From: Dehalococcoidia bacterium
Lineage (GTDB): Bacteria > Chloroflexota > Dehalococcoidia > Lucifugimonadales > UBA3495
Length of the DNA stretch: 64,000 nucleotides
Assembly: GCA_965216425.1 (NCBI GenBank)
Contig: CBDCFV010000004.1
Coordinates: 121,144 to 185,143, forward strand
Reading direction: 5' to 3'
Every line of letters starts with the position of its first letter. The first letter of the stretch is position 1. Of the stretch, positions 16,739 through 36,369 are shown piece after piece. The position numbers were made by a program, and so were the translations under genes. Under the pieces are notes generated by a model. That model was given only the letters and a program-made list of their open reading frames with translations. It made no database searches and was not told where the DNA came from.

Positions 16739-17893
16739 ATGACCGGGAGTCCGGAGAGCATAGTGCAGGAAGCGATCGATTTGGCTATCAGAGAGCGCGG
16801 GGAAATCGGAGTACAGGTCGCCGCCTACCTCAACAGCGAACTGGTGATCGACCAGTGGGGCGGCCTGGCCGATGAGACCACCGGCCAGGAGGTCGACGGA
16901 GACACGCTCTTCCAGGTGTTTTCGAACATAAAGGCCGTGACGGCAACGGCCCTGCACATCCAGGTGGAACGGGGCCTGGTTGACTACCACCAACCAGTGG
17001 CGAAGTACTGGCCCGAATTCGGCAAGCACGGCAAGGACCGGGGTACGGTGTTCGACGCGTTGACCCATCGCATCGGAGTGCCGCTCATGCCCGTGGGAGT
17101 AACTCCTGAACTCATGTGCGACTGGGACTGGATGGTGGACCAGATCGCAGAGATGCATCCTCTCTTCGAGCCGGGGACTCGCAGCGGTTACATGGCCTAC
17201 ACCTTCGGCTGGGTGGTTGGGGAGGTTGTGCGGCGTACCGACAAGCTGCACCGGCCATTCGGCCGGTTCATCCAGGATGAAATCTGCCAGCCACTGGGCA
17301 TCAGCGACCTGTGGGCCGGGATTCCTACAGAGGTGGAGTCCCGGGTGGCCAAGCTGACCAATTTGCCTCCGATCCCTCCGGGCGCCCCTGGGGTGCCCCC
17401 AGACTCGCTGCGGCCCCGGGCCACCCCTCCGGAGGTTGCGACAACCCAGGAGGTATTCGGCCGGTCCGATGTGCGCCAGGCCTGCATCCCCGGGGCCCAG
17501 GGAATCATGAACGCGCGGAGCCAAGCCCGCTTCTACGCCATGCTGGCCAATGGCGGCGAACTGGACGGCGCGCGCCTTCTCTCCGAGGAACGTGTGCGGA
17601 CCTTCCACCTACCCCGTCCACCCAGCGATTACGATCCGGTCAGCGGCACACCCCATCACGGGACCATCGGAGGCTTCCACTTCGCCGGCAGTCCCGGCAT
17701 GGGCGCCATGGGGAGTAACCCGCTGGCTTTCGGCCACAATGGCGCCGGCGGCTCGCTGGGCTGGGCGGATCCCAAGCACCGGCTGGCAGTCGCGATCCAA
17801 CACAATCGCATGGTCCCTCACGGCCCGCCCGAGAAAAGCCCGCTGACACCCATTGGTGCAGCGGTTCGGAATGCTCTGGGGATACCCGAGTAG
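16739..17893 (+). CDS. Serine hydrolase (beta-lactamase/esterase family)
   Basis: FSNIKAV gives an S-x-x-K motif near the N-terminus. Size is typical of class C-like esterases. Confidence 0.75.
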   Translation: MTGSPESIVQEAIDLAIRERGEIGVQVAAYLNSELVIDQWGGLADETTGQEVDGDTLFQVFSNIKAVTATALHIQVERGLVDYHQPVAKYWPEFGKHGKDRGTVFDALTHRIGVPLMPVGVTPELMCDWDWMVDQIAEMHPLFEPGTRSGYMAYTFGWVVGEVVRRTDKLHRPFGRFIQDEICQPLGISDLWAGIPTEVESRVAKLTNLPPIPPGAPGVPPDSLRPRATPPEVATTQEVFGRSDVRQACIPGAQGIMNARSQARFYAMLANGGELDGARLLSEERVRTFHLPRPPSDYDPVSGTPHHGTIGGFHFAGSPGMGAMGSNPLAFGHNGAGGSLGWADPKHRLAVAIQHNRMVPHGPPEKSPLTPIGAAVRNALGIPE

Positions 17894-17991
17894 ATTCCGT
17901 GGGCTCCCTGGGAGTGGTTTGGGCGAACTCGTAATTTAGGGGAATATATACAATCTTATACAACCGTCTCCCTACAGTACCAATGTAACCA

Positions 17992-18270
17992 TCAACAGAA
18001 CACGATTCCTATGGCGCCTGCGAGGATTAGCGAGGTTCTCCGGTCCAGATGAAACCCCTTCCGTCTGCCGGGCGCGGCCAACGTCTTGGGCGTCACGACG
18101 GTCATGTATCCCCCGCAATGGAGACAGAATTCAGCGGTGGGCGGACTCTCCATATAACAATCGTTGCAATGTCGGACGTAGTCCATTTGACAAGAACTCC
18201 CGTGTTGCACTGACACGAAGCGGTGGACGCAGAAGATTTGGACGGTCCGGGTTTCGGTCTCCTGGCCCAA
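17992..18270 (-). CDS. Zinc-ribbon protein with a C-terminal TM segment
   Basis: CNDCY...CLHCGG double CxxC, then LILAGAIGIVF. Confidence 0.35.
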   Translation of the reverse strand: MGQETETRTVQIFCVHRFVSVQHGSSCQMDYVRHCNDCYMESPPTAEFCLHCGGYMTVVTPKTLAAPGRRKGFHLDRRTSLILAGAIGIVFC

Positions 18271-18289
18271 ACGTCCGTAGACTTCCCGG

Positions 18290-18974
18290 TCAACGTCGAT
18301 TGGGCTGGTAGATCACTCTGGGACGGGGGACACTGGCCGAATCCACCTTTTTGCACAAGGGTTTACCCCAGCGATTTGGGATTGATTGGGATGGGCATCG
18401 CCTGCACTTCCGGAAGTACTTTTTCAGCGAACAGCTTCAGGCGCTTTTCGGCCTTATCCCTTGGCATCCCGCCGTGGAGGTCCTGGAAGGACTGGACGGC
18501 CGGCTCAGGGTGCGCCATGAGGGACGCATCATCAATGCCCGGGAGGCGCCGCCCAGCCCAGCCTTCCTCCGCAACGGCCGTGGAGATTCGGCCACTCATC
18601 TTGCATCGCCCGCCGGGGCCAACCACTTGGACCAGTGCTGGGCGACGACACTCAAGTCCCTGGACTCAAGGGCAGCGGATGAGGAGGATCAAGCGGGCAT
18701 GACCGGCGGTGCGTCCGCTGCCTTGACGCCCGCAACTGTCCTCCCGCGCAAACCAACCTTCCTGCAGAAGGAGAGATGGAAGGCAATTCAGAAAGCCAAG
18801 TGCAAGGGGATGTCGCTGCGGGCGATCGAGTGGGAGTTGGGAATCCACAGAGCCACCGTGAGGAAATATCTGGACGCCGACGGTCCTCCAACCCGGCGAC
18901 CCTGGGCGGGTCCTACGCCGTCATCATCTGATACCATGACCGCATAACCGAGTGACATTTCTGCCGGCCACTTA
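18290..18974 (+). pseudogene. Right-end remnant of an ISNCY-like element
   Basis: C-terminal transposase-like piece (VEVLEGLDGRLRVRHEGRII), an HTH piece (MSLRAIEWELGIHRATVRKYL) and the terminal repeat GTGACATTTCTGCCGGCCACTTA at 18952-18974. Confidence 0.45.
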
Positions 18975-19199
18975 AACGGACATTTTCCCTGAACAGCGAC
19001 ACCCCACTGGCATGTTTTGTCGACGCCCTTGACAGTCCTTAGTATTGATATCAAGCCCCCCTGGAACACAGCGCCAGAGTAGGCATCAAAGCTAAACGCA
19101 AATGAAACGGCTGGGCTTTCAATTGCCCGCTGTCGGCTCTTGCCCAACAACATGCGATTGCCCTGAGCCTTCACCACCTGCGACGCACGGGCCATTTGG

Positions 19200-19901
19200 T
19201 CAACAGCCCGATGCTCCACCCCAATACTCCGTCCGACGAGAATAATCCGCCACTTCCACCAATCGGCGCATCCTATCCATGGTTACCAAAACCAAGTTGT
19301 GCTGCTTTGCCGTGCTCAGGATCCAGAGGTCGTTCTCCTGAATCCCTAACTCCTTGCCCGTAGTTCGCTCAATTAAATCTTCCACCCATTTGGCCGTCAG
19401 CCTTCCGCGCCGGTCACGAGGTGAATATTTCCTGAAAAGATCTCCCCTGATTTCGCCGTAGACCTTAGCCGTATGCCGGTTAACGTCACGAACACGGTAA
19501 CTTCCCATAGCGGTTCGCACGGTTTCCTGTCTAGAAAGGACAATTTTAGGGGCTGCTGCCAATCCGTATTCCACCTCGCCGAAGGACACAACAGAAACGA
19601 AAACCAGACCGTCGCCCAGATTGTTCAATCTTCGTAAGACCGCGCCATGGCTGGGTGATCCCATATCCCACGATGAACTGGCGACGCTAGCAGGCTGCTG
19701 AAAAACTCTGAGGTCTACTCAGGACCCAAAGCTGCTCGACGATAAGCGACGCCACTGTTGTGTGTTCTGCACCATAGCTTCACACGAACTTAAATGATGA
19801 CGTATATCGGTAGGTTACTTGACGTTCCATCCATCCGCGTCTGTGCGCCTTACCTTTTTCAGCAGCCTGCTAGTGTCCAGAAGATAGCCTTCCGTGTTCA
19901 T
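19200..19901 (-). pseudogene. PIN-domain (VapC-like) nuclease gene interrupted by a MITE
   Basis: Removing the MITE at 19687..19873 joins ATG 19901 (MNTEGYLLDTS) in frame to ORF 19200..19664 (...ENDLWILSTAKQHNLVLVTMD), giving 173 codons. The start overlaps the methyltransferase stop (ATGA). Confidence 0.75.
19687..19873. mobile_element. MITE family 4 (187 bp)
   Basis: 19-nt perfect inverted ends CTAGCAGGCTGCTGAAAAA / TTTTTCAGCAGCCTGCTAG. CTAG-bounded. Confidence 0.75.
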
Positions 19902-22447
19902 CGTTCAAGCTCAGTGCCATACAAATGCGCCATGGCTTCTGTGATGGCGGGATCATCAATAGTGGGTAAACGCCTGAGAGTCGCTTCCGCCGACGCATCA
20001 CCAACCTCACCGGACTGATACTCGTGCCACGAAACAAAAGGTTTGAATGACCTCGGGAAGTACTCCCTGAAATCAACTGGGCCGGGTCGTGAATGTTCCG
20101 AGAAATGATCCAGGAGCGCCCGTTCCGTACGGGGAGCAAAATCATACGCCTTCAAAACCTCAGCATCGATCAAATGAAGCAACGCCTTGCACTCCCGCAT
20201 CCCTTCATCGCGTGAAACTGTCCCGGACAGCCATTGCCGGCGCACGCGAGAGTATTCCCGAACTATCTCCGATATGACTTCAACCTGTCCCGGCTCCACG
20301 TTAGGGACAGGTATACCGAGCAACGTTTGTCGGCGCACATCTCTCTTGCCTTCTCTCGTGGCAACGAACGCGTTGGCCACCGGGCCATTCAACACCGCCG
20401 CTAGCAATTCAACGTGCGTTGCGTCCGACGGCCAAACTCCGTGGAAATTCTGGTAACAAACAAGTCCCTCTGTGTCTACAGAAGCAGATACGGTCCAAGG
20501 CCCTCGAGTCCTGCGCCGAGCATTGACTATAACCTTCGGGTGTTCCCACTGTAACCGGTGGGCCCCGCCTTTCATGAACTGAGCTGATATGTTGAGAAAC
20601 ACGTTGGCGGTCGCCAGGAATGGTTCGAAATGGTCCCGAACGACCTGCAGGCCCGGTGCGTACCCGACTCTTGGAACAGAAGAAACCAACTGAGCACGGT
20701 TTTGGTCAAGCCTGACATTAAACTCGATCCCGCGGTGGACAGACGCGACGTCCCCCAACGTTTTCAGGTGGGTTGCGGCCTCCCAGACGTCGGACAGAGC
20801 AGGGATCCAAATGCTCGCCCCAAAGTCATTCTTTGCAGGATCGAATGGTGCCGAAGACACGTGTGACGGCTGATGCGTCTGGTAAAAATGCTGGAGGTCT
20901 TGCTTCTTCACCTCGCCGGTCGAGAGCATTCGCTTTTTGCCGGGGCGCTGGGCGGCGACCAGCAACACGGCCTCCACATCCGAATGTCGGAACACCTTGT
21001 CTGGTAAGGCAACCAGATCTATATCGGTATAGACACGGGCGACTTCCAAGCGAAGGTCGCGGTACACCCGCCCATCCACGAAAGAGCGAGGAAGGACGAA
21101 CCCCAACATCTGAGGGGGGCGCTGCAGCACCTTATTTAGGATCGCAGCCGGCTTACTTACCGGGAGCGAGTCTCCGTACTGAGCCCTTTCTGCCGATTTG
21201 AAATTTTCAAACGGAGGGTTACACAGCACGACCCGGGCCCGTTCCAGTTCGGTCTCAACAAGCTCCGAGGCCAAAGCGTCGGCTCCGTAGATGCACCATC
21301 CAGCAGGGTTGGGGTAGTCTGCCAACATCAGCGAGAGTCGGGCCACCTCCCTAGCGAAGTCGTCGATTTCAACCCCGACGAGCATCCGCTTGAAGTACTC
21401 GTGGCGCTCTTCCCTAGTCCAATCGAGGGGTAACCGTTCCTTCAAACGCCGCATCGCGGCTACGAGGAACACAGCATGACCCGCAAACGGTTCAAACACA
21501 CGGGAGTCCTGTATCTCCAAGTCTTCAAAAGGCAGTTGCCGAACGATGTACTCCGCCACATATGGTGGAGTACTGTGGACCCCGTACAGCTTGCGAGTTT
21601 TCTCGGCGACTAGGGTAGTCTCATACACATACGCGAGGGATTCAACCGAAAGGTTCTGGAAATGGAACGCCTGCTTGATCCGCTCCCAAGCAACCGACGC
21701 TGCGCCCCGATGGCTGAGGACGTCGACGTGGGAGGGCTCTTCGTAAAAATCCTGCACGGCCATCGCGGCGAGATGCGGGTCTTCATGCAACCACTCGCCA
21801 GGGTGCCCCCTATCGGCCAATACCTTAGCAGCGATAAACCTAAATAGAAGACGAAATAGTGGCGGGTAGTCGTCGTCCAGGAAAGGGGAACTCTTTTCGA
21901 ATTCTGAGATAGCCAAAGCCACCGTTTCCTGTAGGAGACGATCCAACTTTGCGCGAGCTTCTTCCTCAAGGAGCGGCAACAAACCAGCGTCGAAGAAATC
22001 TAGTTGGTAACTCGAACTGTCCCGCATCGCCTTCGCTTCGAGGATCCGGATTGGAGACCAATCGTGCTGATAACGTCGGAACAAGCCAGAGATCTGACCC
22101 GCTTCCACGCTGTCCAACAACCGTGGCTCTCCCCTTTCGGTCATCGCCCACCTGAGCAGGTGATGGTCTCGGACTTCGAAAACTTGAGGCGCCCCTAATG
22201 ACCGACAGCGAGCGACCGCTGTGGTACCGTTTCGTTCGTTGCCGAAAACTACTCCAATGCAAGCACTCCGATACGAAGGCGGGTCCTGTGCAAATGCGGC
22301 GAGATCGACCTCCTGAACCGAGTACTCGTTGGCGAGCACGTCGGCGAATTGATAATGTTCCAGTAGAAGTGCTTCCTCGTACCCTACACCAAGCAGTCCT
22401 TCCTTGACTGACCGGAACAGATCGTTATTGTCGGAACTCTTTGTCAT
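19898..22447 (-). CDS. N6-adenine DNA methyltransferase, type IIG-like architecture
   Basis: HSTPPYVAEYIV, VFEPFAGHAVFL (motif I) and LCNPPFENF (motif IV). TaqI-like target-recognition segment (LGDVASVHRGIEF). A roughly 340-aa N-terminal extension of unknown function. Confidence 0.8.
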   Translation of the reverse strand: MTKSSDNNDLFRSVKEGLLGVGYEEALLLEHYQFADVLANEYSVQEVDLAAFAQDPPSYRSACIGVVFGNERNGTTAVARCRSLGAPQVFEVRDHHLLRWAMTERGEPRLLDSVEAGQISGLFRRYQHDWSPIRILEAKAMRDSSSYQLDFFDAGLLPLLEEEARAKLDRLLQETVALAISEFEKSSPFLDDDYPPLFRLLFRFIAAKVLADRGHPGEWLHEDPHLAAMAVQDFYEEPSHVDVLSHRGAASVAWERIKQAFHFQNLSVESLAYVYETTLVAEKTRKLYGVHSTPPYVAEYIVRQLPFEDLEIQDSRVFEPFAGHAVFLVAAMRRLKERLPLDWTREERHEYFKRMLVGVEIDDFAREVARLSLMLADYPNPAGWCIYGADALASELVETELERARVVLCNPPFENFKSAERAQYGDSLPVSKPAAILNKVLQRPPQMLGFVLPRSFVDGRVYRDLRLEVARVYTDIDLVALPDKVFRHSDVEAVLLVAAQRPGKKRMLSTGEVKKQDLQHFYQTHQPSHVSSAPFDPAKNDFGASIWIPALSDVWEAATHLKTLGDVASVHRGIEFNVRLDQNRAQLVSSVPRVGYAPGLQVVRDHFEPFLATANVFLNISAQFMKGGAHRLQWEHPKVIVNARRRTRGPWTVSASVDTEGLVCYQNFHGVWPSDATHVELLAAVLNGPVANAFVATREGKRDVRRQTLLGIPVPNVEPGQVEVISEIVREYSRVRRQWLSGTVSRDEGMRECKALLHLIDAEVLKAYDFAPRTERALLDHFSEHSRPGPVDFREYFPRSFKPFVSWHEYQSGEVGDASAEATLRRLPTIDDPAITEAMAHLYGTELER

Positions 22448-22704
22448 GAACCCACCACGCCTCGGTGCCCGCCGCTGGGCTTCCTTACAGGCTTCACCCA
22501 CGCTGGACTGAACTAGGTCGACGTCGCACCGACGATGCGGCGGGCAGGACGGTCGACATGATCAAGATGCGATCGCGAACTTATATGCTATTTGAGAACG
22601 GCGTATGCGGCACAGTGTACCAAAATAACTAGGCAGTCAACGAACGCCCCATGCCTCCGAGTTTCGCCGGTAAAGCGGAATGGGCACCTCGAAAAGGTTC
22701 TCGC

Positions 22705-23540
22705 TAACTGGCCAGCAGAAATGTCACATTCAACTTATGGAGAATGTGACTTTGACGCCCAAAGAACAGACGAGACTCAAGATCCTCAACAGCTTGCTCG
22801 CAGAACACATGACACTGGATCAGGCCGCCGTTCTGATGGCTGTCAGCCCATGCCACGCCCGCCGCATCCTTGCGGCTTACCAGGAGAAAGGCTCTGCCAC
22901 CGTTGTTCACGGTCTCCGGGGCCGCAAGCCGGCCAACGCAACTCCCGAGCCCGTTGCAACCGCTGTGGTTCACCTGGCTCGCACCAGGTACGCAGGGACC
23001 AACCACACCCATCTCAGCGAGTTGCTGAGCGAGGGCGACGGCATCGACAGGACCACCCTGCGGCGCATCCTGGTCAACGCCGGCCTGAGCAGTCCGCGGC
23101 GAAGCCGTCCGCCAAAGCACCGGGTACGCCGCCAGCGTATGCCTCGGGAGGGAATGCTGATCCAGATCGACGGCAGCTATCACCGGTAGCTGGGCGAAGA
23201 CGGTCCCCAGTTCACGATACTGTTCGCGGGGGACGATGCCATCGGTACGGTGGTCGACGCCCTCTTCTGCGAGAAGGTAGACGCACACAGCTACTTCCTG
23301 CTGGTCCACGGTCTCGTGCACCACCTCGGCCTACCCTTCGCCCTCTACACCGACCGGAACGGAGTCTTCAGGCACACACCCGACTCCGGCCTCCCAGGGA
23401 GGCCGACCCAGTTCAGCCGGGCCAAGGACTGGCGCGGCGTCATGGCCAAGAGGCTGGTCTACGCTGCTTCCGATGAGCCTGCAGTGGAACAGCTTTACAG
23501 AGGCGAATTATCTTTGGTCGGAACAGGAATCAGCGGTTAG
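22705..23540 (+). pseudogene. Left part of an ISNCY-like element (transposase frameshifted and truncated)
   Basis: The end repeat TAACTGGCCAGCAGAAATGTCAC is the inverse of 18952-18974 (21/23). LTPKEQTRLKILNSLL...LIQIDGSYH, then shifted-frame pieces. Confidence 0.6.
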
Positions 23541-23553
23541 AATTTCAGTAACA

Positions 23554-28751: not shown

Positions 28752-31571
28752 TCACCCTACCCTGAACACCTTCATAACTTCATCCCCCAAATGGTTGATT
28801 ACCTTCACCGCAATCCGCTCTGACTCCGGCCGCGGGAACGGGCGCGACGTGGCGCTGCGCAGCGTGGCCCAAGCGTCCTCGTCGATTTCGGCGCGGAGCG
28901 TGGTCTTCAGCGACTTGTAGGGATCGCCGGCGCCCAAGAAGTAGGCGTGGCGGACGAAGAAGCTCTCCTGGTTGTAGTCAGTGTCAATGAACCAGCAGGC
29001 GATGCCCTCCGGCCCGTCGCTGCGCACCTCGCCGGTGTTGGGGTGGAAGACGTCCACGCCGTTAACACGTACTTGGACCTGCCCGTCCTCGCAGTCCAGC
29101 ACGTCGATGTCCGGCTCGCCGAAGATGACGAACAGGTTGCCGCTGCCGGTGTTCTTCAGGTCCCCGGCCATGTGAAGGTCGGCGTTCATGCGGGCCTTCA
29201 GCACCGGCACCCGCCCCAAGCTCTCGAACTCCGTGGTATGGGCGTCATAGTTGAAGGCGCAGGCGACCAGCACGTCGAACCCGCCGTCGGCGGCCTCCCG
29301 CGCCGCCTCCACCAAATCGGGGCGCGACACCGTGCCGAACTCCGGCCCGATGAAGATCGCGGCCCTCCGCTCCGGTCCCATCGGCGCATCATCATCCTCA
29401 CCGCTGCCGCCCTCAACGTAGCGGCCATCGGCGCAAACGAACCGCCCCGGCCAGGGTGTCAGTGACGTAAAGGTTATGCGGTCTTCCTTGTGGGCCTGCT
29501 GGACGCCGGAGCGTTTCAGGTTGTCGAGAATGACCTGTCCAAAGTCGTATCCCGTGCCGTAGCCGTTGCGCGCCTCGGCGATGCCGTCTATTACGTCCCC
29601 GTTCTCGTCCACGCCCAGCACCCGGTGGGGCGAGATGCTCTCCACGGTGAAGGGGCCGGCCACCCGCACCTTGCTGCGGTCCTCGTAAGGCTTGTCGTAC
29701 AGGTACTCATAGTCGGCCTTGGCGGCGATGGAGGCGTCTATCTCCCTTTGCCGAGCGATGCGCAAATCCCACCATTCCCGGTGCAGGTCCTGCGCCTCCT
29801 CGGACCACGATTCGTCGGCGTCGCGGGGAATCTCCCACTCCTCCCATGACATTTCCAGGGCTTGGTTCAACTCTTCCCGCAGGGGTTCCATCTCCTCTTG
29901 GGCCGTCTCCCAGATGACATCGATCTGGGAGTTGTTGGCGATGGCCCGCAGGGTGATATGGGGCACCCGGTCGTAGACGAACCCCTGCCGGACGTTGCCG
30001 TATGTGGGCATCTCTGACGGGGCGCGGCGCGAGATCTCGGCCTCCTTCAGTCGGCCTCCCTTGCTGTCAGCCAGCAGGTAGTAGGGATAGCGAGCGCCCA
30101 TGATGCGAGCGCGGGCCAAGGCCAGGGCGACGCGGGAGGTGTCGATGGTGATCCACCGCCGCCCCCACTGCTCGGCCACGTAGGCGGTGGTGCCGGAGCC
30201 ACAGGTGGGGTCCAGCACCAGGTCGCCGGGGTCGGTGGTCATCAGTATGCAGCGTTCTATAACTTTTGCAGAGGTCTCCACCACGTACCGCTTGTCAGCA
30301 GAAAATCCAGCAATACTCGTATCGTCCCAATTGTCGGTAATCGGGTACGCAAGATAATCGTTGAAGTAACGAATGTAGTAGAGATTGGCGGATGCTGGCT
30401 GGACTCGATCAGCCTTTAGAAGCCGAACCATCGAAGATTCTTGTGTCTTCCAATACCCTTTGGGAAAGTAACTTTTGTTTTGAAATACCACATCATAGCG
30501 TGTTCCGGGACTCTGGCTAGTTAGATTGTCTATCCTATAAACACGTTCGTGACTGGGTAAAGGCTCTCCTGCCTTCTCTTCATTAGCCAGAGGGCGCGTG
30601 ATGCCACCCACTGCCCGAGCAGTGTTATATGCGGTTCCGCCTTGGCCCATTAGGCTCTTTAACTTTAGGGGGCGTCGAAACTTTAGTTTTGTGCGGTCTT
30701 TGGAGAACCAAATGATGTAGTCGGAAACAGATGCCAGAAGGTTGTCAGTCTGGCCTGTGGTTTTCACAAAAGTGATCAACCGAACGAAGTTTTCTTCACC
30801 AAACACCTCGTCCATCAGGGCGCGCACCCGGTGGACGTTCTCATCCCCAATCTGCACAAAGATGGAGCCGGACTCAGCCAGCAGGTCGCGGGCAACAGTA
30901 AGACGGTCGCGCAGGTAGGTCAGGTAGGAGTGGATGCCGTCGCGCCAAGTGTCGCGGAAGGCCTTGACCTGCTCCGGCTCGCGGGTGATGTGCTGGCGGT
31001 TGCCGTCGCGAACGTCGCGGCTGGTCGTGGACCACTGGAAGTTGGAGTTGAACCGGATGCCGTAGGGCGGGTCGATGTAGATGCACTGCACCTTGCCCTG
31101 CAGCCCCTCCCGCTCGGATAACGAGGCCATCACCTGCAGGCTGTCGCCCAGGATCATGCGGTTCTGCCAGTATCCCTCGTGCTGGTAGAACTCGGTGCGG
31201 TCGGCCCCTTCGGGCAGACCGTTGAAGTCGGAGAACATGTCTATCTGGTGTTCCTCCGCTTCCCGGTTCTCCTTGGACTGGCGCAGCAGGTCGGCGATGA
31301 GCGCCTTGGGGTGGACCTTCTCCTGGATGTACAGGGGCGGGACGTTGACCACCAGGTCGTCCAGGTCCTGCTCGTCCTTGCCCCGCCAGACCAGCTGCGG
31401 GTCCAGGTCGCGGTTGCGCCGCTGGTAGGCAACCCGCACAGGTGACTCGTCTTCTTCCCGCACCATCGACTGATACTCCGCCGTGGGGATGTTGGTCCGG
31501 GTGTCCTCTTCGTGCCGCAGCGTTTCCACGGACTTGCCAGCGGCTGCACGGGTGCGTCTGGCTCTGGGCAT
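28752..31571 (-). CDS. mod: Type III R-M methyltransferase subunit (Mod), N6-adenine beta class
   Basis: IYIDPPYGIRF (motif IV) upstream of DPTCGSGTTAYVAEQWGRRWITID (motif I). N-terminal DPQLVWRGK. GGAGGGG Shine-Dalgarno sequence. Confidence 0.9.
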   Translation of the reverse strand: MPRARRTRAAAGKSVETLRHEEDTRTNIPTAEYQSMVREEDESPVRVAYQRRNRDLDPQLVWRGKDEQDLDDLVVNVPPLYIQEKVHPKALIADLLRQSKENREAEEHQIDMFSDFNGLPEGADRTEFYQHEGYWQNRMILGDSLQVMASLSEREGLQGKVQCIYIDPPYGIRFNSNFQWSTTSRDVRDGNRQHITREPEQVKAFRDTWRDGIHSYLTYLRDRLTVARDLLAESGSIFVQIGDENVHRVRALMDEVFGEENFVRLITFVKTTGQTDNLLASVSDYIIWFSKDRTKLKFRRPLKLKSLMGQGGTAYNTARAVGGITRPLANEEKAGEPLPSHERVYRIDNLTSQSPGTRYDVVFQNKSYFPKGYWKTQESSMVRLLKADRVQPASANLYYIRYFNDYLAYPITDNWDDTSIAGFSADKRYVVETSAKVIERCILMTTDPGDLVLDPTCGSGTTAYVAEQWGRRWITIDTSRVALALARARIMGARYPYYLLADSKGGRLKEAEISRRAPSEMPTYGNVRQGFVYDRVPHITLRAIANNSQIDVIWETAQEEMEPLREELNQALEMSWEEWEIPRDADESWSEEAQDLHREWWDLRIARQREIDASIAAKADYEYLYDKPYEDRSKVRVAGPFTVESISPHRVLGVDENGDVIDGIAEARNGYGTGYDFGQVILDNLKRSGVQQAHKEDRITFTSLTPWPGRFVCADGRYVEGGSGEDDDAPMGPERRAAIFIGPEFGTVSRPDLVEAAREAADGGFDVLVACAFNYDAHTTEFESLGRVPVLKARMNADLHMAGDLKNTGSGNLFVIFGEPDIDVLDCEDGQVQVRVNGVDVFHPNTGEVRSDGPEGIACWFIDTDYNQESFFVRHAYFLGAGDPYKSLKTTLRAEIDEDAWATLRSATSRPFPRPESERIAVKVINHLGDEVMKVFRVG

Positions 31572-31573
31572 GG

Positions 31574-31999
31574 CTATTCCCCTCCGGTGTTGGGTACAAA
31601 GGGATTGAGCAGGTCAGCGGCCAAACCCTGAACGTGCTGAATGTTTCGAGTTACCAAGATCAGATTGTGGACTTTGGCGGTGGCGGCCAACAGGCCGTCA
31701 ATCACTGGGACATTGCGGATATAGTGCATTCGGCCCCAGGTTTCGGTAATGTCGGCGTCGATTGACAAAATCCGGCCTTCGTAATTTTGCTGTACGTACC
31801 TCAGCCAATTTTCAATGACCTCAGCCTGCTTGGGGCCGCGGTCTCTAACCAGCTCGATTCCTTTGCGAATTTCGCCCAGCGTCAGTACGCTCAGAAACAG
31901 GTCATCGTCTGAAAGGCCGGTGTACCAAGCCGCCACGTTCTCGTCGCACCGGTCCCGTTTCCGCAATTCCGAGACGACGTTGGTATCGAGTAAATACAC
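31574..31999 (-). CDS. vapC: PIN-domain toxin VapC (FitB-like)
   Basis: (V)YLLDTNVVSELRK...LSVLTLGEI...IDGLLAATAKVHNLILVTRN. The GTG start shares one base with the res stop (TAGTG). The stop is 2 nt before the mod ATG. Confidence 0.9.
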   Translation of the reverse strand: MYLLDTNVVSELRKRDRCDENVAAWYTGLSDDDLFLSVLTLGEIRKGIELVRDRGPKQAEVIENWLRYVQQNYEGRILSIDADITETWGRMHYIRNVPVIDGLLAATAKVHNLILVTRNIQHVQGLAADLLNPFVPNTGGE

Positions 32000-33963
32000 T
32001 AACAGGATCCGCTGGGATCATCATACAGAAATGAAACATCGCGCCCGTAGTCTGGAGGCCGTGTCAGATCCAGGTCGTCAAAGGACGGGCCTGCCACCAG
32101 CATCTCCTTGAAGCTGAGTTTGCTGTAATCGTAGTTGGCAAAGTCTTCGGTCGACATGTTCTTGGACGAATCGATAAAATTGAGGATGGCCCGTTCCATT
32201 TCAGCCTTGATGTCATAAACATCGGTGAACTCGGCAAAGGCCCAGCGTCCGTACTGCCCCAGCGCGTTTACGCCCGGCAGCCAGTAGGCCTCCATCGTGT
32301 TCTTCTTTTCCTTGGCGTCCTCGCCCCGGTATCCCTTAATTTCGACAATGAGGTTTAGAGGATCGTCCAGACCGTCGTCCACCTGAACGATGAAGTCGGG
32401 AATGTACCTGCGAGGGGTTGAGCCGTAAAGGTAAGGGACCTCAAGTCCCAGGTTGTGGTTCTTCACGTAGGCTTTCACGTTGGGATGAGACTCCACCACC
32501 CGGCAGAACTCGGCCTCCCAGTCACTGTCCAGCACGGCCAGGTTGACGTGGCACTTGCGGGGGTCGGTGGTCCACAGGCCCGTCTTGGCAGTGGTGAAGT
32601 TGACGCGGCGAGTCGAGCCGACAGGATTGTACGAGTCCAGCAGCGCCTTGATGGACCGCTCGCCCTCCCTGCTGGTTATGGCGGCGGTGATCCGGTTGCA
32701 GGCCATATCCGCCAATGACTGGTACATGAGCTGCGCCGGATAGGTCCCGCCCCGGCAGTCCAGGCAGGTGTCCAGCCACTCCTTTACCACGCTCCGCAGC
32801 TTGCCGAACAGGTGCGTCTTCATATCCTGGTTGGGGTCGCGCCACTTGGTTTGCAGCAGTCGGGTCGTCAGGTGATACACCAGGGTCGAGGTGCGCAGAT
32901 CGCCGGTGTGCACCAGGTTCAGGTCCACGCCCTCACCGATGATGCCCTCGTTCCTGGTCTGAGTCGGCCCCACCAGGTCGGGGGTCAGGTCCAGCCGGGA
33001 GTCGCCGGTGAAGTTGGCGACCAGGTCCTCTCTGGGCGGGTCCTCCCGGTAGCCCGCCACGCGGGGGAAGGTTATCTCTAGGTGGTCGCGCTCAGGACTC
33101 ATGGCCCTGACGTGTACCGTCTGACGTGGCTTCCCCGGGCCTACCACCACCGGCCGGGCGGTGAAGTCGAAGGGTATGCCCAGCACGTCGGCGTACTCAA
33201 CGTTGAACTTGTTGTCCTCGTTCAGGTCATAGGACTGGCGCCGGAGCGCCCTCCCCACAACCTGCTCGCACAGCAACTGCGTGCCGAAGGCGCGGACGCC
33301 GAGCACATGGGTAACGGTGTTGGCATCCCACCCTTCGGTGAGCATGGACACCGAGACCACGCAGCGGATGTCTTGCCCCAGCCGACCATCCTTGCCGACG
33401 GTGTTCATCACTTCGCGGAGCAGTTCCTGGTCGGATATACTGCCGGCCTCCTCGCGGTTGCCGGTGCGTTCGATACGCTCCCGCCGGAACCGTTCTATCT
33501 GGTCGGCGGCGGCGCGGCGGAAGTCATCACTGAGCTTGTCGCCGGACTCCATTTGCTGGCTGTCGGTCAACAGGGTCCGGGGTATGGAATAACGATTGTC
33601 GTACCCGTCGAAATTGCGGAACAACTCCAGCCGTCCGTTCACCACCGAGGTTGTACCGTCCTCGTTGGTCCGCTCAAAGCCGGAGATGTAGTCGTAGACC
33701 AGCTTGGAGGTGGAGGTGTTGTTGCATACGACGATGAAACATGGTGGGCATGGGGCGCCGTCCGCCATCCACTCCTTGTACGTTTTTTCGTAATGGCCGT
33801 AGAGGGCCTGCAACGCGGTCTGCAACGGCGTCGGCAGGTCCAGCGGGTCCAGGTTGCCCGCGCGGTCCCTTCCGACCTTGGGCATGTTGCCGCGGATGTG
33901 CTCCCAGAGGTTGCGGAACACCGGCGCCTCGGTGCCGGGAATGTTGTCGGCCACCGGGACCCG

Positions 33964-35293
33964 CTGACAGGGGTATGTAACGGCTGAAATGGTCTGAAAA
34001 CTTGGAAAGCGCACGGGATTCCGGCATCTTGGTAGCAGTCACAAAACCAGGTGCCGGAGGTGTCCCATGCGCCTTCCAAGGGAATGCTACCAGATGCAGC
34101 AGGTCATTGAAACGCATCTACCTCACCTCTCCCGACCACAGTTGACCGGTCTGGTCCTGTGGGTCTGCGGGGCCATTCTCGCTGGCAGCGCCTGCCAGAA
34201 CGCCGTGGCCTCCGCCCTCTCGCCCTGGGGCGCTTGGAACAACTTCCGCCAGTATCTCCGGGAGTGGCTCTACGACGGCAGCGACCGGGCTCGTCCCTGC
34301 CAGACCGAACTGGACGTAAGCCTCTGCTTCGCCCCACTGCTCCGGTGGGTCCTTTCCTGGTGGCGTTCCGGACGGCTGGCCCTGGCCGTTGATCCCACGC
34401 TCAAAGGCGACCAAACCACCGCCATCGTCATCAGCGTGGTCTACCGGGGTTGCGCCATTCCCGTGGCCTGGCGCATCCACCGGGCCACCCAGCGCGGCTC
34501 CTGGATGGATCCCACGGTGGAACTGCTCAGGAAACTGGCCCCGGCGGTTCCCAAGGAAATGACCGTCATCGTGCTCTGCGACCGGGGCATAGCCAGTCCC
34601 AAGCTGTGGCGACAGATACGCGCTCAAGGCTGGCATCCCTACATGAGGTATCGGAAGAACGTCAGCTTCTGCGCCCAAGATGGCCGCCGGTTGCCCGCAC
34701 AGCACTTCGTTTCCCGTCCCGATACAGCTTGGATTGGCCGCGGCACCGCCTTCAGCACCCCCACCGCAAAACGCCGCTGCACCCTGCTGGCGGTCTGGTA
34801 CGTCGAGCAGGAAGAACCTTGGATCATCCTCACCGACCTGCCGCCGGAGGACGCCGGACCCAGTTGGTACGCCCTGCGCTTCTGGATCGAACTGGGCTTC
34901 AAGGCCGTCAAAAGCCTGGGCTGGAAGTGGGACAAGACCCGGCGCACCGACCCGGCGCGCGTCTCCCGCCACTGGCTGGTGCTGTCGGTGGCAACACTGC
35001 TGGCCCTGGCCTATGGCACCAGGGTGGAAGACGCCCATGACCGCAGGATTGCTCCAGGCAACCTGCGCACGCCGCCCAAGACGTCGGCTCCCAGGCGCCG
35101 CGACCCCTGGGGCAGGCCGGTACGGACCGTCAGCATCATCCGCCACGGCATTGACTGGCTGCGGCGGTTGCTGCTCCGGGGCCGCCTCTGGAGCCGGGTC
35201 TGGCTGCTGCCCGAACCCTGGCCGGAACCCAAACCAGCCCTGGAGGTCACCCGCCATGCCCCGTCCTGAAAACACCTTACATACCCCTGTCAG
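33964..35293 (+). mobile_element. IS4-family insertion sequence
   Basis: Inverted ends CTGACAGGGGTATGTAA. 11-bp target duplication ACCGGGACCCG (33953-33963 and 35294-35304). Confidence 0.85.
34067..35269 (+). CDS. IS4-family DDE transposase
   Basis: 400-aa ORF with the YALRFWIELGFKAVK (Y-R-E-K) signature and DRG/DDE spacing. Confidence 0.8.
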   Translation: MRLPRECYQMQQVIETHLPHLSRPQLTGLVLWVCGAILAGSACQNAVASALSPWGAWNNFRQYLREWLYDGSDRARPCQTELDVSLCFAPLLRWVLSWWRSGRLALAVDPTLKGDQTTAIVISVVYRGCAIPVAWRIHRATQRGSWMDPTVELLRKLAPAVPKEMTVIVLCDRGIASPKLWRQIRAQGWHPYMRYRKNVSFCAQDGRRLPAQHFVSRPDTAWIGRGTAFSTPTAKRRCTLLAVWYVEQEEPWIILTDLPPEDAGPSWYALRFWIELGFKAVKSLGWKWDKTRRTDPARVSRHWLVLSVATLLALAYGTRVEDAHDRRIAPGNLRTPPKTSAPRRRDPWGRPVRTVSIIRHGIDWLRRLLLRGRLWSRVWLLPEPWPEPKPALEVTRHAPS

Positions 35294-36369
35294 ACCGGGA
35301 CCCGGGGCAGCTTGACGATGCCGCATTCAATGGCGTCCATCAGGGAAAAGTCGCTTGCCGTCCAAGGGAACAGGGTCCCCTCGACATAACCGGAGCCCCG
35401 CAGGAAGAAGGGCGTCGCCGACAGGTCCACCACCTTCCGAACGCCCAGTTTGCGATTGACCATTTCCAGCCCGGATATCCAGACGCGGGCCTCCTCGTTG
35501 TTCCGGTCGGCTTCCTGGCGATCCTCTCTGGCCAAGGGACCCTCGTCGTCCTCCCCGGGCTTGCGGCGGTAGCAGTGATGGCCCTCGTCGTTGAAGACCA
35601 TGACGTTCTTCAGGTTCATCAGCTCCGGCATTACCCTCTGGACCATCTGGCCTTCCGATTCCTGGGTCTCAATGGGGCTGCCGGGCCCCTGCAAAAGGGC
35701 CCTGCCGCCGCTGGACATTTCCAGCCGCTCCCGGGGACGCAGTCCGTGGTAGTTGGTGATGACTATCTTGGCCCGCTGCAGGTAGGCCAGCATATCACCG
35801 GGGACCAGTTCCCGGCTGGCGTAGTAGCTGTCCGGGTCATTTGGCTGGAGCACCCGCAAACGGTCTTTGATGGTCAAGCCGGGGGTCACCACCAGGAATC
35901 CCTTGGTGAACCTTCGACTATTGGGATGCCGGACTGCGTTGATGGTCTGCCAAGCGATGATCATGGCCATGACGGTGGTCTTGCCCGCGCCGGTGGCCAG
36001 CTTCAGTGCAACCCTGGACAGTTCCGGGTTCGCCTGGCTGCTGGCGCTTTCCAGCCGCTGGAGCGCGAGTCTTTCTCCAGGCCCCAGCCTCGGGGCTACC
36101 TCGGTGAGCCATATCAGGGTCTCCACTGCCTCAACCTGGCAGAAGAAGGGGCGGTAGTGGCTGAACCTGTGGTGCCGCCAATGCTGGAGCAGCAGGGCCG
36201 TTTCCGGCGTTACCCCCCAGTTCTGCGGGTTGGGAATGCTCCGCCACTGGTCCGCGTACCGCCGGACCTCATTGACCGCCGCGGTAACGTCGTATTGCTG
36301 CTCTTCCGTGGACAGCCCTTGCCCTTCGTCAATTACAAGTTGCCCCTGCCGTTCGCCCCGGGCCCTCCC

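What the first reader, a model, noticed from the sequence alone, without database searches (positions are those of the whole stretch)
19200..22447. PIN nuclease gene translationally coupled to a type IIG-like methyltransferase, with no antitoxin, later hit by a MITE
Removing the 187-bp MITE at 19687-19873 restores a 173-codon PIN ORF. Its ATG overlaps the methyltransferase stop (CGATGAAC), and the canonical N-terminus MNTEGYLLDTS appears only after the MITE is removed. There is no room for an antitoxin gene.

Together with the res-vapC-mod locus, this is the second R-M gene in the island with a directly coupled PIN toxin. That suggests a recurring methyltransferase/R-M plus PIN effector arrangement rather than chance adjacency.
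Basis: partly seen in the sequence, partly recalled or inferred. Interest (0 to 1): 0.7.

Follow-up and report, generated by a model that had tools for sequence, protein, structure and literature searches.

The report
Methyltransferase-fused antitoxin with PIN toxin
A large DNA methyltransferase and a small PIN (VapC-like) nuclease toxin form a widely conserved two-gene module in which the methyltransferase's own C-terminal tail probably acts as the antitoxin, and in this genome a small mobile element has recently knocked out the toxin.

Summary
An intact 849-aa type IIG-like N6-adenine methyltransferase gene (22447→19898, minus strand) ends in ATGA, and that ATG starts a VapC-like PIN gene. 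The PIN gene is split after codon 11 by a 179-bp MITE flanked by CTAG. One correction: 183 bp must be removed, not 187. Two metagenome alleles at 99.7–100% identity have the empty site and an intact 172-aa PIN.

The pairing is not chance. In 40 of 40 intact homologous loci whose methyltransferase keeps the same ~55-aa C-terminal tail, a PIN gene follows within −23 to +19 nt. All 13 evaluable homologues with a different tail lack PIN. Twelve of them carry another effector instead: HNH, metallo-β-lactamase, RES, or an unknown 127-aa protein. Extra look-ups repeated this and added an AriA/AriB-like case.

In a RES-type plasmid example the tail matches the Xre/MbcA/ParS antitoxin toxin-binding domains. 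The PIN-type tail is conserved, predicted disordered, found only at the C-terminus of this family, and co-varies with PIN.

Best reading: a toxin–antitoxin-like defence or addiction module whose antitoxin is fused to a methyltransferase. The trigger is unknown. No named system matched, but the literature search mostly failed.

The parts
19898..22447 (-). Intact gene for an 849-aa type IIG-like N6-adenine DNA methyltransferase. From N- to C-terminus: a restriction-endonuclease-like fold, a helical linker, a gamma-class methyltransferase domain, a target-recognition domain, a helical C-terminal domain and a tail.
   Evidence: ORF. Pfam N6_Mtase 2.4e-10 and MmeI_Mtase 8.4e-7. More than 1000 homologues of about 842 aa. 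AF2 model pLDDT 86.9. Foldseek matches to CamA, M.BseCI, BpuSI, DrdV and PglX/BrxX at E 1e-17 to 5e-21.
22058..22447 (-). N-terminal domain, residues 1-130, with an alpha/beta restriction-endonuclease-like fold. No canonical D...(D/E)xK motif can be identified.
   Evidence: AF2 model of residues 1-262, pLDDT 87.7. Best PDB match is 9y1l_B, a 'putative restriction endonuclease domain' protein (E 6e-3, prob 1.0, TM 0.50); the DrdV N-terminus scores E 0.08. Conserved residues are E30, D36, Q54, E91, R99, W100 and K101. No sequence-level match to the PDB or to Uma2 proteins.
21209..21220 (-). NPPF catalytic motif (residues 410-413) of the gamma-class adenine methyltransferase. It is invariant across the family.
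   Evidence: Invariant columns N410, P411, P412 and F413 in 25- and 80-sequence alignments.
19901..20089 (-). C-terminal tail, residues 787-849, which is specific to PIN-type members and is the proposed PIN-binding (antitoxin-like) segment.
   Evidence: Homologues diverge immediately after the conserved LLDxFxGxxRP. The tail is present in all 40 intact PIN-linked loci and absent from all 13 evaluable PIN-less loci. Sequence is conserved (R787, G789, P790, F793, Y796, P798, F801, P803 and others), yet pLDDT is only 49-60. A tail profile finds 161 cluster representatives among 1.84e9; in all 150 listed the match lies within ~70 residues of the C-terminus, and of 12 read in full 10 are this methyltransferase family or clear C-terminal fragments of it. 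Partial Mantel r(tail,PIN|core)=0.33, p=5e-4.
19898..19901 (-). ATGA overlap between the methyltransferase stop (TGA) and the PIN start (ATG), giving translational coupling.
   Evidence: Read directly from the sequence. The same 4-nt overlap occurs in L002, L058 and L059. The junction is -23 to +19 nt in 36 scorable loci.
19870..19901 (-). 5' fragment of the PIN gene, codons 1-11 (MNTEGYLLDTS), including the first catalytic Asp (D9).
   Evidence: Reconstruction. YLLDT is invariant in the PIN family.
19691..19869 (.). Non-coding 179-bp MITE with 15-bp terminal inverted repeats (CAGGCTGCTGAAAAA at 19691-19705, and its reverse complement at 19855-19869).
   Evidence: Empty site in L058, L059 and L001. 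At least 120 elements with the same repeat pair in metagenome contigs.
19687..19690 (.). Left copy of the CTAG target-site duplication. The right copy is at 19870-19873.
   Evidence: A single CTAG is present in the empty-site alleles. CTAG/YTAR flanks dominate in the MITE family.
19200..19686 (-). 3' fragment of the PIN gene, codons 12-172 plus the stop, carrying E48, D130 and D148.
   Evidence: ORF. Only 2 mismatches in 711 nt against the intact allele. All four acidic residues are at least 90-97% conserved in 41 PINs. Profile matches to VapC structures 3zvk (1.4e-10), FitB and tRNA(fMet)-specific VapC.
28752..34014 (-). Context only, not the same system. The second PIN-containing restriction-modification locus of the island, in order: a BPTD_3080-family restriction endonuclease ORF (34014-31999), PIN2 (31999-31574) and an N6_N4 methyltransferase (31571-28752).
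   Evidence: Pfam and NCBIfam. Junctions are a 1-nt overlap and a 2-nt gap. PIN2 is 26% identical to PIN1.

Best explanation
The locus is a toxin-antitoxin-like two-gene module. The upstream protein is a full-length type IIG-like N6-adenine DNA methyltransferase whose last ~55-60 residues act as the antitoxin. This tail is conserved but disordered on its own, and it binds and silences the downstream VapC-like PIN ribonuclease.

Translational coupling through the ATGA overlap means PIN is made only together with its inhibitor, as in type II toxin-antitoxin operons. The usual small DNA-binding domain of the antitoxin is replaced here by a sequence-specific methyltransferase.

The module is a mobile cassette found in defence islands and on plasmids. 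In sister lineages the tail and the downstream gene are exchanged together for other cognate pairs.

What is shown:
- the anatomy of the locus;
- conservation of the gene pair;
- the correspondence between tail type and effector type;
- an intact PIN catalytic site across the family;
- an antitoxin-domain match in a RES-type tail;
- the recent MITE insertion.

What is inferred:
- physical binding and neutralisation of PIN by the tail;
- RNA as the PIN target;
- the trigger.

My preferred trigger is release or activation of the toxin when the methyltransferase is disabled, titrated or degraded. That could happen through phage anti-restriction proteins or through loss of the cassette. The module would then act as an abortive-infection guard and an addiction device.

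In this genome the toxin gene was recently inactivated by an IS5- or IS630-type MITE, which leaves a solitary methyltransferase.
For: 1. Gene pairing. Among 57 loci, 40 have an intact pair and one has a decayed pair, with PIN directly after the methyltransferase on the same strand. The junction is -23 to +19 nt. Reciprocally, the PIN subfamily (382 hits) sits next to such methyltransferases wherever I checked.

2. Tail matches effector.
- Every methyltransferase with the PIN-type tail has PIN downstream. All 13 evaluable ones with another tail lack it; 12 of those 13 carry HNH, metallo-beta-lactamase, RES or a 127-aa protein instead, and one (L023) has no identifiable effector gene.
- Five more look-ups repeated the pattern: RES, RES-like, PIN, HNH and metallo-beta-lactamase. 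A sixth look-up (P0470) found a methyltransferase fused to an AriA-like ATPase followed by DUF4276, whose tail resembles the HNH type.
- A neighbour-joining tree of the methyltransferase core intersperses the effector types, so several swaps occurred. All of them break at the same point, just after LLDxFxGxxRP.

3. Antitoxin domain in a sister member. In Rhizobium sp. Q54 plasmid 8 the methyltransferase tail matches Xre-MbcA-ParS_M (3.6e-4) followed by Xre_MbcA_ParS_C (6.2e-5). The overlapping next gene is RES (1.5e-16). Other RES-type tails give weaker signals to the same family: Pfam 0.036, and MbcA structure 6fkg as the second-best PDB match.

4. Properties of the PIN-type tail. It is conserved yet has low pLDDT. 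Its profile matches lie at or near the C-terminus in all 150 listed hits, and nearly all of the 12 read in full are this family. It co-varies with PIN beyond what the methyltransferase core explains.

5. PIN looks active and VapC-like. D9, E48, D130 and D148 are conserved. The nearest structures are VapC and FitB toxins.

6. Mobility and context. Homology to the 93%-identical relative covers only 19073-22632. No other neighbouring gene is conserved across the family. The surroundings are defence-rich.

7. Toxin knockout. Inactivation of the toxin gene alone, by a recent insertion, fits a toxin whose loss is tolerated.
Against: - No direct evidence of binding or neutralisation exists. A complex prediction could not be run.
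- The PIN-type tail resembles no known VapB.
- The Xre/MbcA/ParS_C match scores 23.4 bits, just below Pfam's gathering score of 24.5. It comes from the RES-type tail, not the PIN-type tail.
- The P0470 tail resembles the HNH-type tail yet is followed by a fused AAA ATPase, so not every tail need be a simple adaptor specific to one effector.
- HNH and metallo-beta-lactamase partners could be DNA nucleases recruited for restriction rather than toxins.
- One homologue (L023) has no recognisable effector gene.
- The partial Mantel statistic is known to be liberal for phylogenetically structured data.
- The trigger and the biological role (defence versus addiction) are untested.
Confidence: 0.65

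Rival explanations
1. Split restriction enzyme. The methyltransferase-like protein has lost its own nuclease activity. It uses its tail to recruit a trans-acting nuclease (PIN here, HNH or metallo-beta-lactamase elsewhere) that cuts unmethylated foreign DNA. On this reading the pair is a true restriction-modification system in which PIN is the R subunit.
For: The N-terminal domain has a restriction-endonuclease-like fold but no identifiable D...(D/E)xK motif. HNH and metallo-beta-lactamase partners are plausible DNases. The architecture matches type IIG enzymes such as BpuSI and DrdV. The tail-effector correspondence fits recruitment as well as it fits inhibition.
Against: Four RES-type members (L039, L184, L185, L194) pair the same core with a RES toxin, which by established knowledge acts on NAD+ or by ADP-ribosylation and not as a nuclease. 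One of them carries an antitoxin-type tail. The PIN is closest to VapC and FitB RNase toxins. To my knowledge no restriction endonuclease with a PIN fold is known, and Matelska 2017 (PMC5499597) states that PIN nucleases acting as restriction modules had not been shown. E30, D36, E91 and K101 of the N-terminal domain remain conserved, so the protein may keep a nuclease of its own.
Confidence: 0.15
2. Pure addiction module with no defence role. The methyltransferase-antitoxin fusion and PIN only stabilise the cassette or plasmid by post-segregational killing. They do not sense phage.
For: The operon layout is that of a type II toxin-antitoxin system: antitoxin first, then a 4-nt overlap. The module occurs on plasmids and as a mobile 3.5-kb cassette. 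A disordered tail could be protease-labile like classical antitoxins.
Against: The module sits in defence-rich neighbourhoods. One relative has an AriA/AriB (PARIS)-like effector set. Keeping a ~790-aa methyltransferase and recognition core over several phyla is hard to explain if only a toxin-binding peptide were needed. This rival overlaps the best explanation and differs only in the trigger and the biological role.
Confidence: 0.15
3. No functional link. PIN is an orphan VapC whose own antitoxin was lost, or it serves some housekeeping RNA-processing role and merely rides in the methyltransferase operon.
For: RefSeq annotates the pair only generically, as 'N-6 DNA methylase' and 'PIN domain-containing protein'. 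PADLOC and NCBIfam have no system model for it.
Against: The pair is conserved in 40 of 40 intact tail-bearing loci across phyla, at 36-93% methyltransferase identity. Tail and effector are exchanged together. No vapB is present in any allele. The tail co-varies with PIN.
Confidence: 0.03

Closest known systems
VapBC type II toxin-antitoxin systems (for example Rickettsia felis VapBC2 3zvk, FitAB, Shigella VapBC)
   Same: The toxin is a VapC-like PIN domain with four conserved acidic residues. The upstream gene overlaps the toxin start. The proposed neutralising segment is a C-terminal region that is disordered on its own.
   Different: There is no small VapB. The upstream protein is an 849-aa DNA methyltransferase. 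The PIN carries a ~25-40-aa insertion relative to VapC structures (172 aa against ~130-140 aa). The tail resembles no known VapB.
RES-Xre toxin-antitoxin systems (MbcT-MbcA, ParT-ParS)
   Same: Sister members of this methyltransferase family carry a RES toxin downstream. In L194 the tail matches the Xre/MbcA/ParS middle and C-terminal toxin-binding domains, in the correct order.
   Different: The antitoxin's N-terminal HTH domain is replaced by the whole type IIG-like methyltransferase. The window's member has PIN rather than RES, and its tail is unrelated in sequence.
PrrC anticodon nuclease held latent by the type Ic restriction-modification enzyme EcoprrI, and PARIS (AriA/AriB); both are called restriction-modification 'guardians' in PMC12707154
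   Same: An RNA-targeting toxin is encoded inside a restriction-modification locus or methyltransferase operon and is presumably kept silent by the DNA-modification protein. One relative (L186) even carries an AriA-like ATPase fusion together with DUF4276.
   Different: The protein families differ: PIN rather than the PrrC ABC-ATPase/anticodon nuclease, and a single-chain type IIG-like methyltransferase rather than HsdMSR. Activation by anti-restriction proteins is untested here.
Type IIG/IIL restriction-modification enzymes (BpuSI, MmeI, DrdV) and BREX PglX/BrxX
   Same: The overall architecture and fold match: an N-terminal restriction-endonuclease-like domain, a helical linker, a gamma-class NPPF methyltransferase and a TaqI-like recognition domain.
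   Different: No catalytic (D/E)xK motif can be identified. There is an extra C-terminal effector-specific tail and a dedicated downstream toxin gene. No BREX partner genes are present.
Toxin displacement at immunity loci (Makarova et al. 2012, PMC3506569) and hyperpromiscuous antitoxin domains such as PanA (Kurata et al. 2022; cited from my own knowledge and not checked here)
   Same: One constant partner is combined with many unrelated toxins, and toxins sit inside restriction-modification loci with no classical antitoxin.
   Different: Those reports concern type I and III restriction-modification loci or a small antitoxin domain. Matelska 2017 (PMC5499597) found no PIN in a type II context. 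Here the constant partner is a type IIG-like methyltransferase, and the adaptor tail changes along with the toxin.

Membership tests
Type IIG restriction-modification enzyme | Gamma-class N6-adenine methyltransferase domain with a SAM-binding motif and NPPF | tested here: met
   Pfam N6_Mtase 2.4e-10 and MmeI_Mtase 8.4e-7. FEPFAGH and NPPF are invariant in 80 sequences. Foldseek matches to CamA, M.BseCI, BpuSI and DrdV.
Type IIG restriction-modification enzyme | Target-recognition domain C-terminal to the methyltransferase domain in the same chain | tested here: met
   TaqI_C matches in close homologues at residues 610-713. The full-length fold aligns to BpuSI and DrdV over ~930 columns.
Type IIG restriction-modification enzyme | N-terminal PD-(D/E)xK endonuclease domain with catalytic D...(D/E)xK | tested here: inconclusive
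   The fold is weakly restriction-endonuclease-like (9y1l_B E 6e-3; DrdV E 0.08). No canonical motif is present; the conserved residues are E30, D36, E91 and K101. No sequence-level match was found.
Type IIG restriction-modification enzyme | Site-specific DNA cleavage and methylation by one polypeptide | not testable with these tools
   Needs enzyme assays and methylome sequencing.
VapBC type II toxin-antitoxin system | PIN-domain toxin with the four conserved acidic residues | tested here: met
   Pfam PIN 5.8e-12. D9, E48, D130 and D148 are conserved in 41 PINs. Matches to VapC and FitB structures.
VapBC type II toxin-antitoxin system | Separate small VapB antitoxin gene (AbrB, RHH, HTH or PHD type) immediately upstream | tested here: not met
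   The upstream gene is the 849-aa methyltransferase and overlaps the PIN start. No small ORF lies between them here or in any MITE-free allele. No upstream gene is conserved across the family.
VapBC type II toxin-antitoxin system | The toxin is neutralised by direct binding of the antitoxin's C-terminal region | not testable with these tools
   Only indirect evidence: tail-effector correspondence, a disordered but conserved tail, and co-variation.
RES-Xre (MbcTA/ParST) toxin-antitoxin system, applied to sister members of the methyltransferase family | RES toxin encoded downstream, and an Xre/MbcA/ParS toxin-binding domain in the upstream protein | tested here: inconclusive
   RES is met: L194 1.5e-16, L184 4.3e-6, L039 4e-8, and L185 by BLASTP at 1e-35. 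The tail of L194 matches Xre_MbcA_ParS_C at 6.2e-5 (23.4 bits against a cut-off of 24.5) and the M domain at 3.6e-4. The other RES-type tails give only 0.036, or MbcA at E 0.2.
PrrC/EcoprrI-type restriction-modification guardian | PrrC protein (ABC-ATPase N-domain plus anticodon-nuclease C-domain) embedded in a type Ic hsd locus | tested here: not met
   The toxin is a PIN domain, and no hsd genes flank it. The resemblance is functional only.
BREX (PglX) | A PglX methyltransferase accompanied by brxA/B/C, pglZ and brxL | tested here: not met
   Only weak matches below the cut-offs (NCBIfam BREX_2_MTaseX 21.8 bits against 400; PADLOC PglX 8e-5). The neighbouring genes tested are not BREX genes.
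MITE (non-autonomous DNA transposon) | Short size, terminal inverted repeats, target-site duplication, an empty site in related sequences, and multiple copies | tested here: met
   179 bp, 15-bp inverted repeats and a CTAG duplication. Empty sites in L058, L059 and L001. At least 120 elements share the repeat pair in metagenomes. The 179-bp core holds no ORF of its own. Only one copy lies in this window. The parent IS family, IS5 or IS630, is not resolved.

The most novel reading that the evidence does not exclude
This could be an undescribed class of anti-phage defence. A nuclease-dead type IIG-like methyltransferase would serve as the DNA or anti-restriction sensor. It would hold one of several interchangeable toxic effectors (PIN, HNH, metallo-beta-lactamase, RES, AriA/AriB-like) inactive through a cognate C-terminal antitoxin tail. 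The effector would be released when the methyltransferase meets unmethylated foreign DNA or is attacked by phage anti-restriction proteins.
Probability: 0.35. Interest if true: 0.85.

Novelty: new variant of a known kind. Interest (0 to 1): 0.72.

Why it matters
Three points would matter if the tail does neutralise the toxin.

- **A new antitoxin architecture.** This would be a toxin-antitoxin system whose antitoxin is part of a sequence-specific DNA methyltransferase. That physically links epigenetic self-marking to a suicide or dormancy effector.
- **A testable case of an old hypothesis.** Coupling between restriction-modification and toxins has been hypothesised since the PrrC work (Makarova 2012, PMC3506569). 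Matelska 2017 (PMC5499597) reported that no PIN had been seen in a type II restriction-modification context. This family offers a simple two-gene case, with natural effector swaps as built-in controls.
- **Tractable hosts and better annotation.** Carriers include Agrobacterium, Sinorhizobium and Rhizobium plasmids. The result also tells annotators that hundreds of 'N-6 DNA methylase' plus 'PIN/RES/HNH' pairs are single systems.

For this particular genome the consequence is modest, because the toxin is already dead and only a solitary methyltransferase remains.

Tried and rejected
- **Complex model.** I tried an AlphaFold run on the tail, a linker and PIN as one chain.
- **N-terminal domain.** A profile against PDB sequences gave nothing. 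hhalign against two Uma2 proteins from L001 gave nothing. My by-eye alignment to Uma2, which suggested lost catalytic residues, is therefore not used as evidence.
- **Tail profiles.** The PIN-type tail profile against the PDB gave no VapB-like match. The L039 RES-type tail alone gave no Pfam or PDB match. The signal appeared only with further RES-type tails.
- **Stand-alone antitoxin.** I looked for a free-standing version of the tail among 1.84e9 representatives. Of the nine short hits read in full, seven contain the preceding methyltransferase motif and are clearly C-terminal fragments; P0259 starts inside that motif and P0272 has an unrelated N-terminus. No convincing stand-alone form appeared.
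- **Longer homologues.** The ~960-970-aa homologues are not methyltransferase-PIN fusions. Two of the five tested (P0094, P0117) show weak HEAT-repeat matches at the C-terminus; the extension in the other three (P0107, P0110, P0119) matched nothing.
- **Phage carriage.** No relative was found in IMG/VR viral contigs.
- **Third gene.** No neighbouring gene is conserved across the family apart from the effector. The 143-aa ORF that overlaps the PIN 3' end (18788-19219) is not conserved in L001.
- **RNA and signals.** The Rfam scan of 17000-24000 gave nothing. Promoter and terminator scans were at background level.
- **Second PIN.** An exact-sequence look-up of PIN2 found no record.
- **Literature.** Eight of nine full-text searches failed with a server error. 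Prior description of this family therefore cannot be excluded. Only PMC5499597, PMC12707154 and PMC3506569 were consulted.
- **BREX or MADS membership.** I rejected it because the scores fall far below the cut-offs and no partner genes are present.

Full report
**1. What is in the window**

On the minus strand an 849-aa ORF runs from ATG 22447 to TGA 19900-19898. An in-frame GTG at 22501 would add 18 residues.

The last bases read CGATGAAC. The ATG at 19901-19899 overlaps the stop codon by 4 nt and opens MNTEGYLLDTS. After these 11 codons the frame is broken by an insertion.

The stretch 19687-19873 starts and ends with CTAG. It has 19-nt perfect inverted ends, or 15 nt without the CTAG.

Removing all 187 bp shifts the frame. 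Removing 183 bp, so that one CTAG remains, restores a 172-aa protein, which is 173 codons with the stop. That protein matches Pfam PIN at E=5.8e-12.

**2. The insertion is real and recent**

Two short contigs from different metagenome samples, L058 and L059, match the window on both sides of the element at 100% and 99.7% identity. They have the uninterrupted site ...GGACACTAGCGTC..., the same ATGA overlap, and an intact 172-aa PIN, P0121. The 93%-identical relative L001 and the 75%-identical L002 are also uninterrupted.

The flanks are mostly CTAG/CTAG or other YTAR words, and the interiors are unrelated.

This is a widespread MITE family mobilised by an IS5-like or IS630-like transposase. I could not decide which. 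The window holds only this one copy.

**3. The methyltransferase**

Pfam finds N6_Mtase and MmeI_Mtase in residues ~270-420. PADLOC and NCBIfam give only generic methyltransferase hits, or BREX and MADS hits far below their cut-offs.

The protein belongs to a large family with a tightly conserved length of ~842 aa and more than 1000 hits. The family is conserved from end to end. FEPFAGH and NPPF are invariant.

An AlphaFold model built with 80 homologues is confident: pLDDT 86.9 and pTM 0.81. Its nearest solved structures are the following:
- the solitary methyltransferases CamA and M.BseCI;
- the type IIG/IIL enzymes BpuSI and DrdV, aligned over ~930 columns;
- BREX PglX/BrxX, including its complex with Ocr.

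Modelled alone, the N-terminal 130 residues have a weak but specific restriction-endonuclease-like fold. The best match is 9y1l_B at E 6e-3, prob 1.0, and DrdV scores E 0.08. I could not find a D...(D/E)xK motif among the conserved residues E30, D36, Q54, E91, R99, W100 and K101. Sequence-level comparisons gave nothing.

'Type IIG-like' is thus a fair description of the architecture. Nuclease activity remains open.

**4. The PIN protein**

D9, E48, D130 and D148 are at least 90-97% conserved in 41 orthologues. A profile of the family matches VapC and FitB toxin structures: 3zvk at 1.4e-10, and tRNA(fMet)-specific VapCs. It is about 30-40 residues longer than those toxins.

**5. The pairing is conserved**

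A scan of one genome per species with the methyltransferase alignment returned 55 loci. They come from Chloroflexota, Acidobacteriota, Planctomycetota, Gemmatimonadota, Myxococcota, KSB1 and Deferribacteres.

With L001 and L002 added, 40 loci have an intact PIN gene directly after the methyltransferase on the same strand, and one more (L056) has both genes decayed. The distance between the stop and the candidate starts is -23 to +19 nt in 36 scorable loci.

Going the other way, the PIN subfamily has 382 hits, all of ~166-180 aa. It sits next to such a methyltransferase wherever I looked.

Cultured examples lie on plasmids of Agrobacterium tumefaciens A74a and Sinorhizobium chiapasense. RefSeq annotates them only as 'N-6 DNA methylase' and 'PIN domain-containing protein'.

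The homology between the window and L001 is confined to 19073-22632. No other neighbouring gene is conserved across the family. The unit is therefore a mobile two-gene cassette. No viral contig carries it.

**6. The key result: tail and effector change together**

In every PIN-linked locus the methyltransferase aligns to the query's last residues, reaching position ~837-848. In the 13 evaluable loci without PIN the alignment stops at residue ~782-811, and the protein continues with a different extension.

Twelve of those 13 loci carry a different gene in the PIN position:

| Downstream gene | Loci |
|---|---|
| HNH nuclease | 7 |
| Metallo-beta-lactamase-fold protein | 2 |
| RES toxin | 1 |
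| Unknown 127-aa protein | 2 |
| No identifiable effector (L023) | 1 |

The sequences share IDAEVLxAYDLPPRxERxLLDxFxGxxRP and diverge immediately afterwards. Each effector type has its own tail type.

Six further look-ups of proteins from independent samples gave these results:

| Methyltransferase | Downstream gene |
|---|---|
| P0391 | RES |
| P0392 | RES homologue (BLASTP 1e-35) |
| P0424 | PIN |
| P0402 | HNH |
| P0433 | metallo-beta-lactamase |
| P0470 | methyltransferase fused to an AAA_15/21 ATPase, then DUF4276 |

The tails of these proteins are shown. The P0470 arrangement is the domain pair of PARIS AriA/AriB.

A neighbour-joining tree of the methyltransferase core places the non-PIN types among PIN-type lineages. 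Tail plus effector has therefore been swapped several times as a unit. This tree is rough.

**7. Is the tail an antitoxin?**

On Rhizobium sp. Q54 plasmid 8, the methyltransferase homologue overlaps a solid RES gene (1.5e-16) by 4 nt. Its C-terminal 105 residues match, in the right order, Pfam Xre-MbcA-ParS_M (3.6e-4) and Xre_MbcA_ParS_C (6.2e-5). The second score is 23.4 bits against a cut-off of 24.5. These are the toxin-binding modules of the cognate RES antitoxins.

Other RES-type tails give weaker signals to the same family. One scores 0.036 against Pfam. A three-sequence profile ranks MbcA (6fkg) second among 177,635 PDB sequences, at a non-significant E of 0.2.

In this sister type the methyltransferase very probably is the antitoxin, with the usual HTH domain replaced by the methyltransferase.

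For the PIN-type tail the evidence is indirect:
- It is well conserved but has pLDDT of only 49-60 in a model that is otherwise confident.
- Its profile finds 161 cluster representatives among 1.84 billion. In all 150 listed the match ends within ~70 residues of the C-terminus. Twelve were read in full: ten are this family or clear C-terminal fragments of it, one (P0272) has an unrelated N-terminus, and one (P0355) is a spurious repeat protein.
- Its divergence tracks that of PIN beyond what the core explains. The partial Mantel r is 0.33 with p=5e-4, a statistic that is liberal for related sequences.
- It matches no known VapB.

**8. Mechanism**

I commit to a toxin-antitoxin-like module. The methyltransferase's tail binds and silences a VapC-like RNase. 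The ATGA coupling ensures the two proteins are made together.

The methyltransferase core either gives the module a DNA-linked sensing role or is itself what the toxin guards. My preferred trigger is loss or inhibition of the methyltransferase. Phage anti-restriction proteins could do this, since Ocr binds structurally related PglX (listed). Loss of the cassette could do it too.

That parallels PrrC/EcoprrI and PARIS, which a 2025 review calls restriction-modification 'guardians' (PMC12707154). It also fits the immunity-suicide coupling hypothesis (PMC3506569).

The trigger is inferred and not shown.

The main rival is a split restriction enzyme in which PIN, HNH or the metallo-beta-lactamase protein is recruited as the nuclease. 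HNH partners and the motif-less N-terminal domain favour it. RES partners with antitoxin-type tails and the VapC affinity of the PIN argue against it.

**9. The second locus**

On the minus strand, a BPTD_3080-family restriction endonuclease ORF is followed by a 141-aa PIN and then a 939-aa N6_N4 methyltransferase. The first ORF covers only model positions 390-969 of 970. The PIN's GTG overlaps the upstream TAG by 1 nt, and the methyltransferase starts 2 nt after the PIN stop.

This PIN is only 26% identical to the first. It is an analogous arrangement in a different restriction-modification family. I did not test whether it is conserved elsewhere.

**10. Novelty and caveats**

Matelska et al. 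2017 saw PIN genes next to type I restriction-modification subunits, sometimes without antitoxins. They saw none in type II contexts, and they noted that no direct interaction between toxin-antitoxin and restriction-modification systems had been shown (PMC5499597).

PADLOC v2, NCBIfam and RefSeq give this pair no system name. Eight of my nine literature searches failed with server errors, so an existing description cannot be excluded.

I rate it a new variant of known kinds: type II toxin-antitoxin systems and toxins linked to restriction-modification. The copy in this window is a recently disabled member, with an intact methyltransferase and a toxin gene split by a MITE.

Noticed in passing
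window 19691-19869; loci L064-L183: The MITE belongs to a very widespread family defined only by its 15-bp inverted repeats (CAGGCTGCTGAAAAA). At least 120 metagenome contigs carry elements of 164-194 bp with unrelated interiors. Flanks are mostly CTAG/CTAG or YTAR. The parent transposase family, IS5-like or IS630-like, is unresolved.
   Followed up: partly
window 28752-34014 (-), with ORF 34118-35326 (-) upstream: Second PIN-containing restriction-modification locus. A BPTD_3080-family restriction endonuclease ORF covers only model positions 390-969 of 970, so its N-terminal third is missing or split off. It is followed by PIN2 (1-nt overlap) and a 939-aa N6_N4 methyltransferase (2-nt gap). 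I did not check whether this trio is conserved elsewhere.
   Followed up: partly
window 51084-53165 (-): A 694-aa ORF has Eco57I methylase and Type_ISP_C specificity domains (E 4e-83) but no helicase or nuclease part. It may be a truncated type ISP enzyme or a methyltransferase-only derivative.
   Followed up: no
window 54627-57934 (-), 27869-28675 (-), 23557-25716 (-): Further defence-like genes in the island. One is an AAA_13/SMC-like 862-aa ATPase with a 241-aa partner that has no family match. Another is a Schlafen AlbA_2 protein. The third is a UvrD-like helicase with an unassigned ~250-aa N-terminus.
   Followed up: no
window 22680-23540 (+): HTH_28/HTH_29/HTH_23 ORF fragments lie right next to the methyltransferase start. 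They look like the N-terminus of a decayed IS630-like transposase. The homology to relative L001 ends close by, at 22632.
   Followed up: no
L186 3501-7877 (ENA ERZ25039541): A methyltransferase homologue (P0470, 995 aa) is fused at its C-terminus to an AAA_15/AAA_21 ATPase. An AAA_21 fragment and a DUF4276 protein follow. This is the domain pair of the PARIS system (AriA/AriB), a known sensor of anti-restriction proteins.
   Followed up: partly
L194 3953-7371 (Rhizobium sp. Q54 plasmid 8, LR606151.1): This methyltransferase homologue has a C-terminal tail that matches the Xre/MbcA/ParS middle and C-terminal antitoxin domains. It overlaps a RES toxin gene by 4 nt, and a BseRI-like restriction endonuclease gene lies just upstream.
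   Followed up: yes
L192 499-7954 (Agrobacterium tumefaciens A74a plasmid pAtA74a_a): Here the methyltransferase-PIN pair is preceded by a 165-aa hypothetical gene that overlaps the methyltransferase start by 4 nt, and by a DEAD/DEAH helicase. A Shedu SduA gene follows. This lineage may have a larger operon.
   Followed up: no
L056 5761-9002: In one Chloroflexia genome both the methyltransferase and the PIN gene are broken into many frameshifted pieces. Here the whole module decayed, in contrast to the toxin-only knockout in the window.
   Followed up: no
L029 5041-5424, L035 3655-4038: A 127-aa downstream protein with no family match pairs with a distinctive ~110-aa methyltransferase tail (...DPDYG..EQLFLGV...FDxEWWVHHVR..GLLCIDL). 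At least five further homologues carry this tail. It is an uncharacterised effector-adaptor pair.
   Followed up: partly
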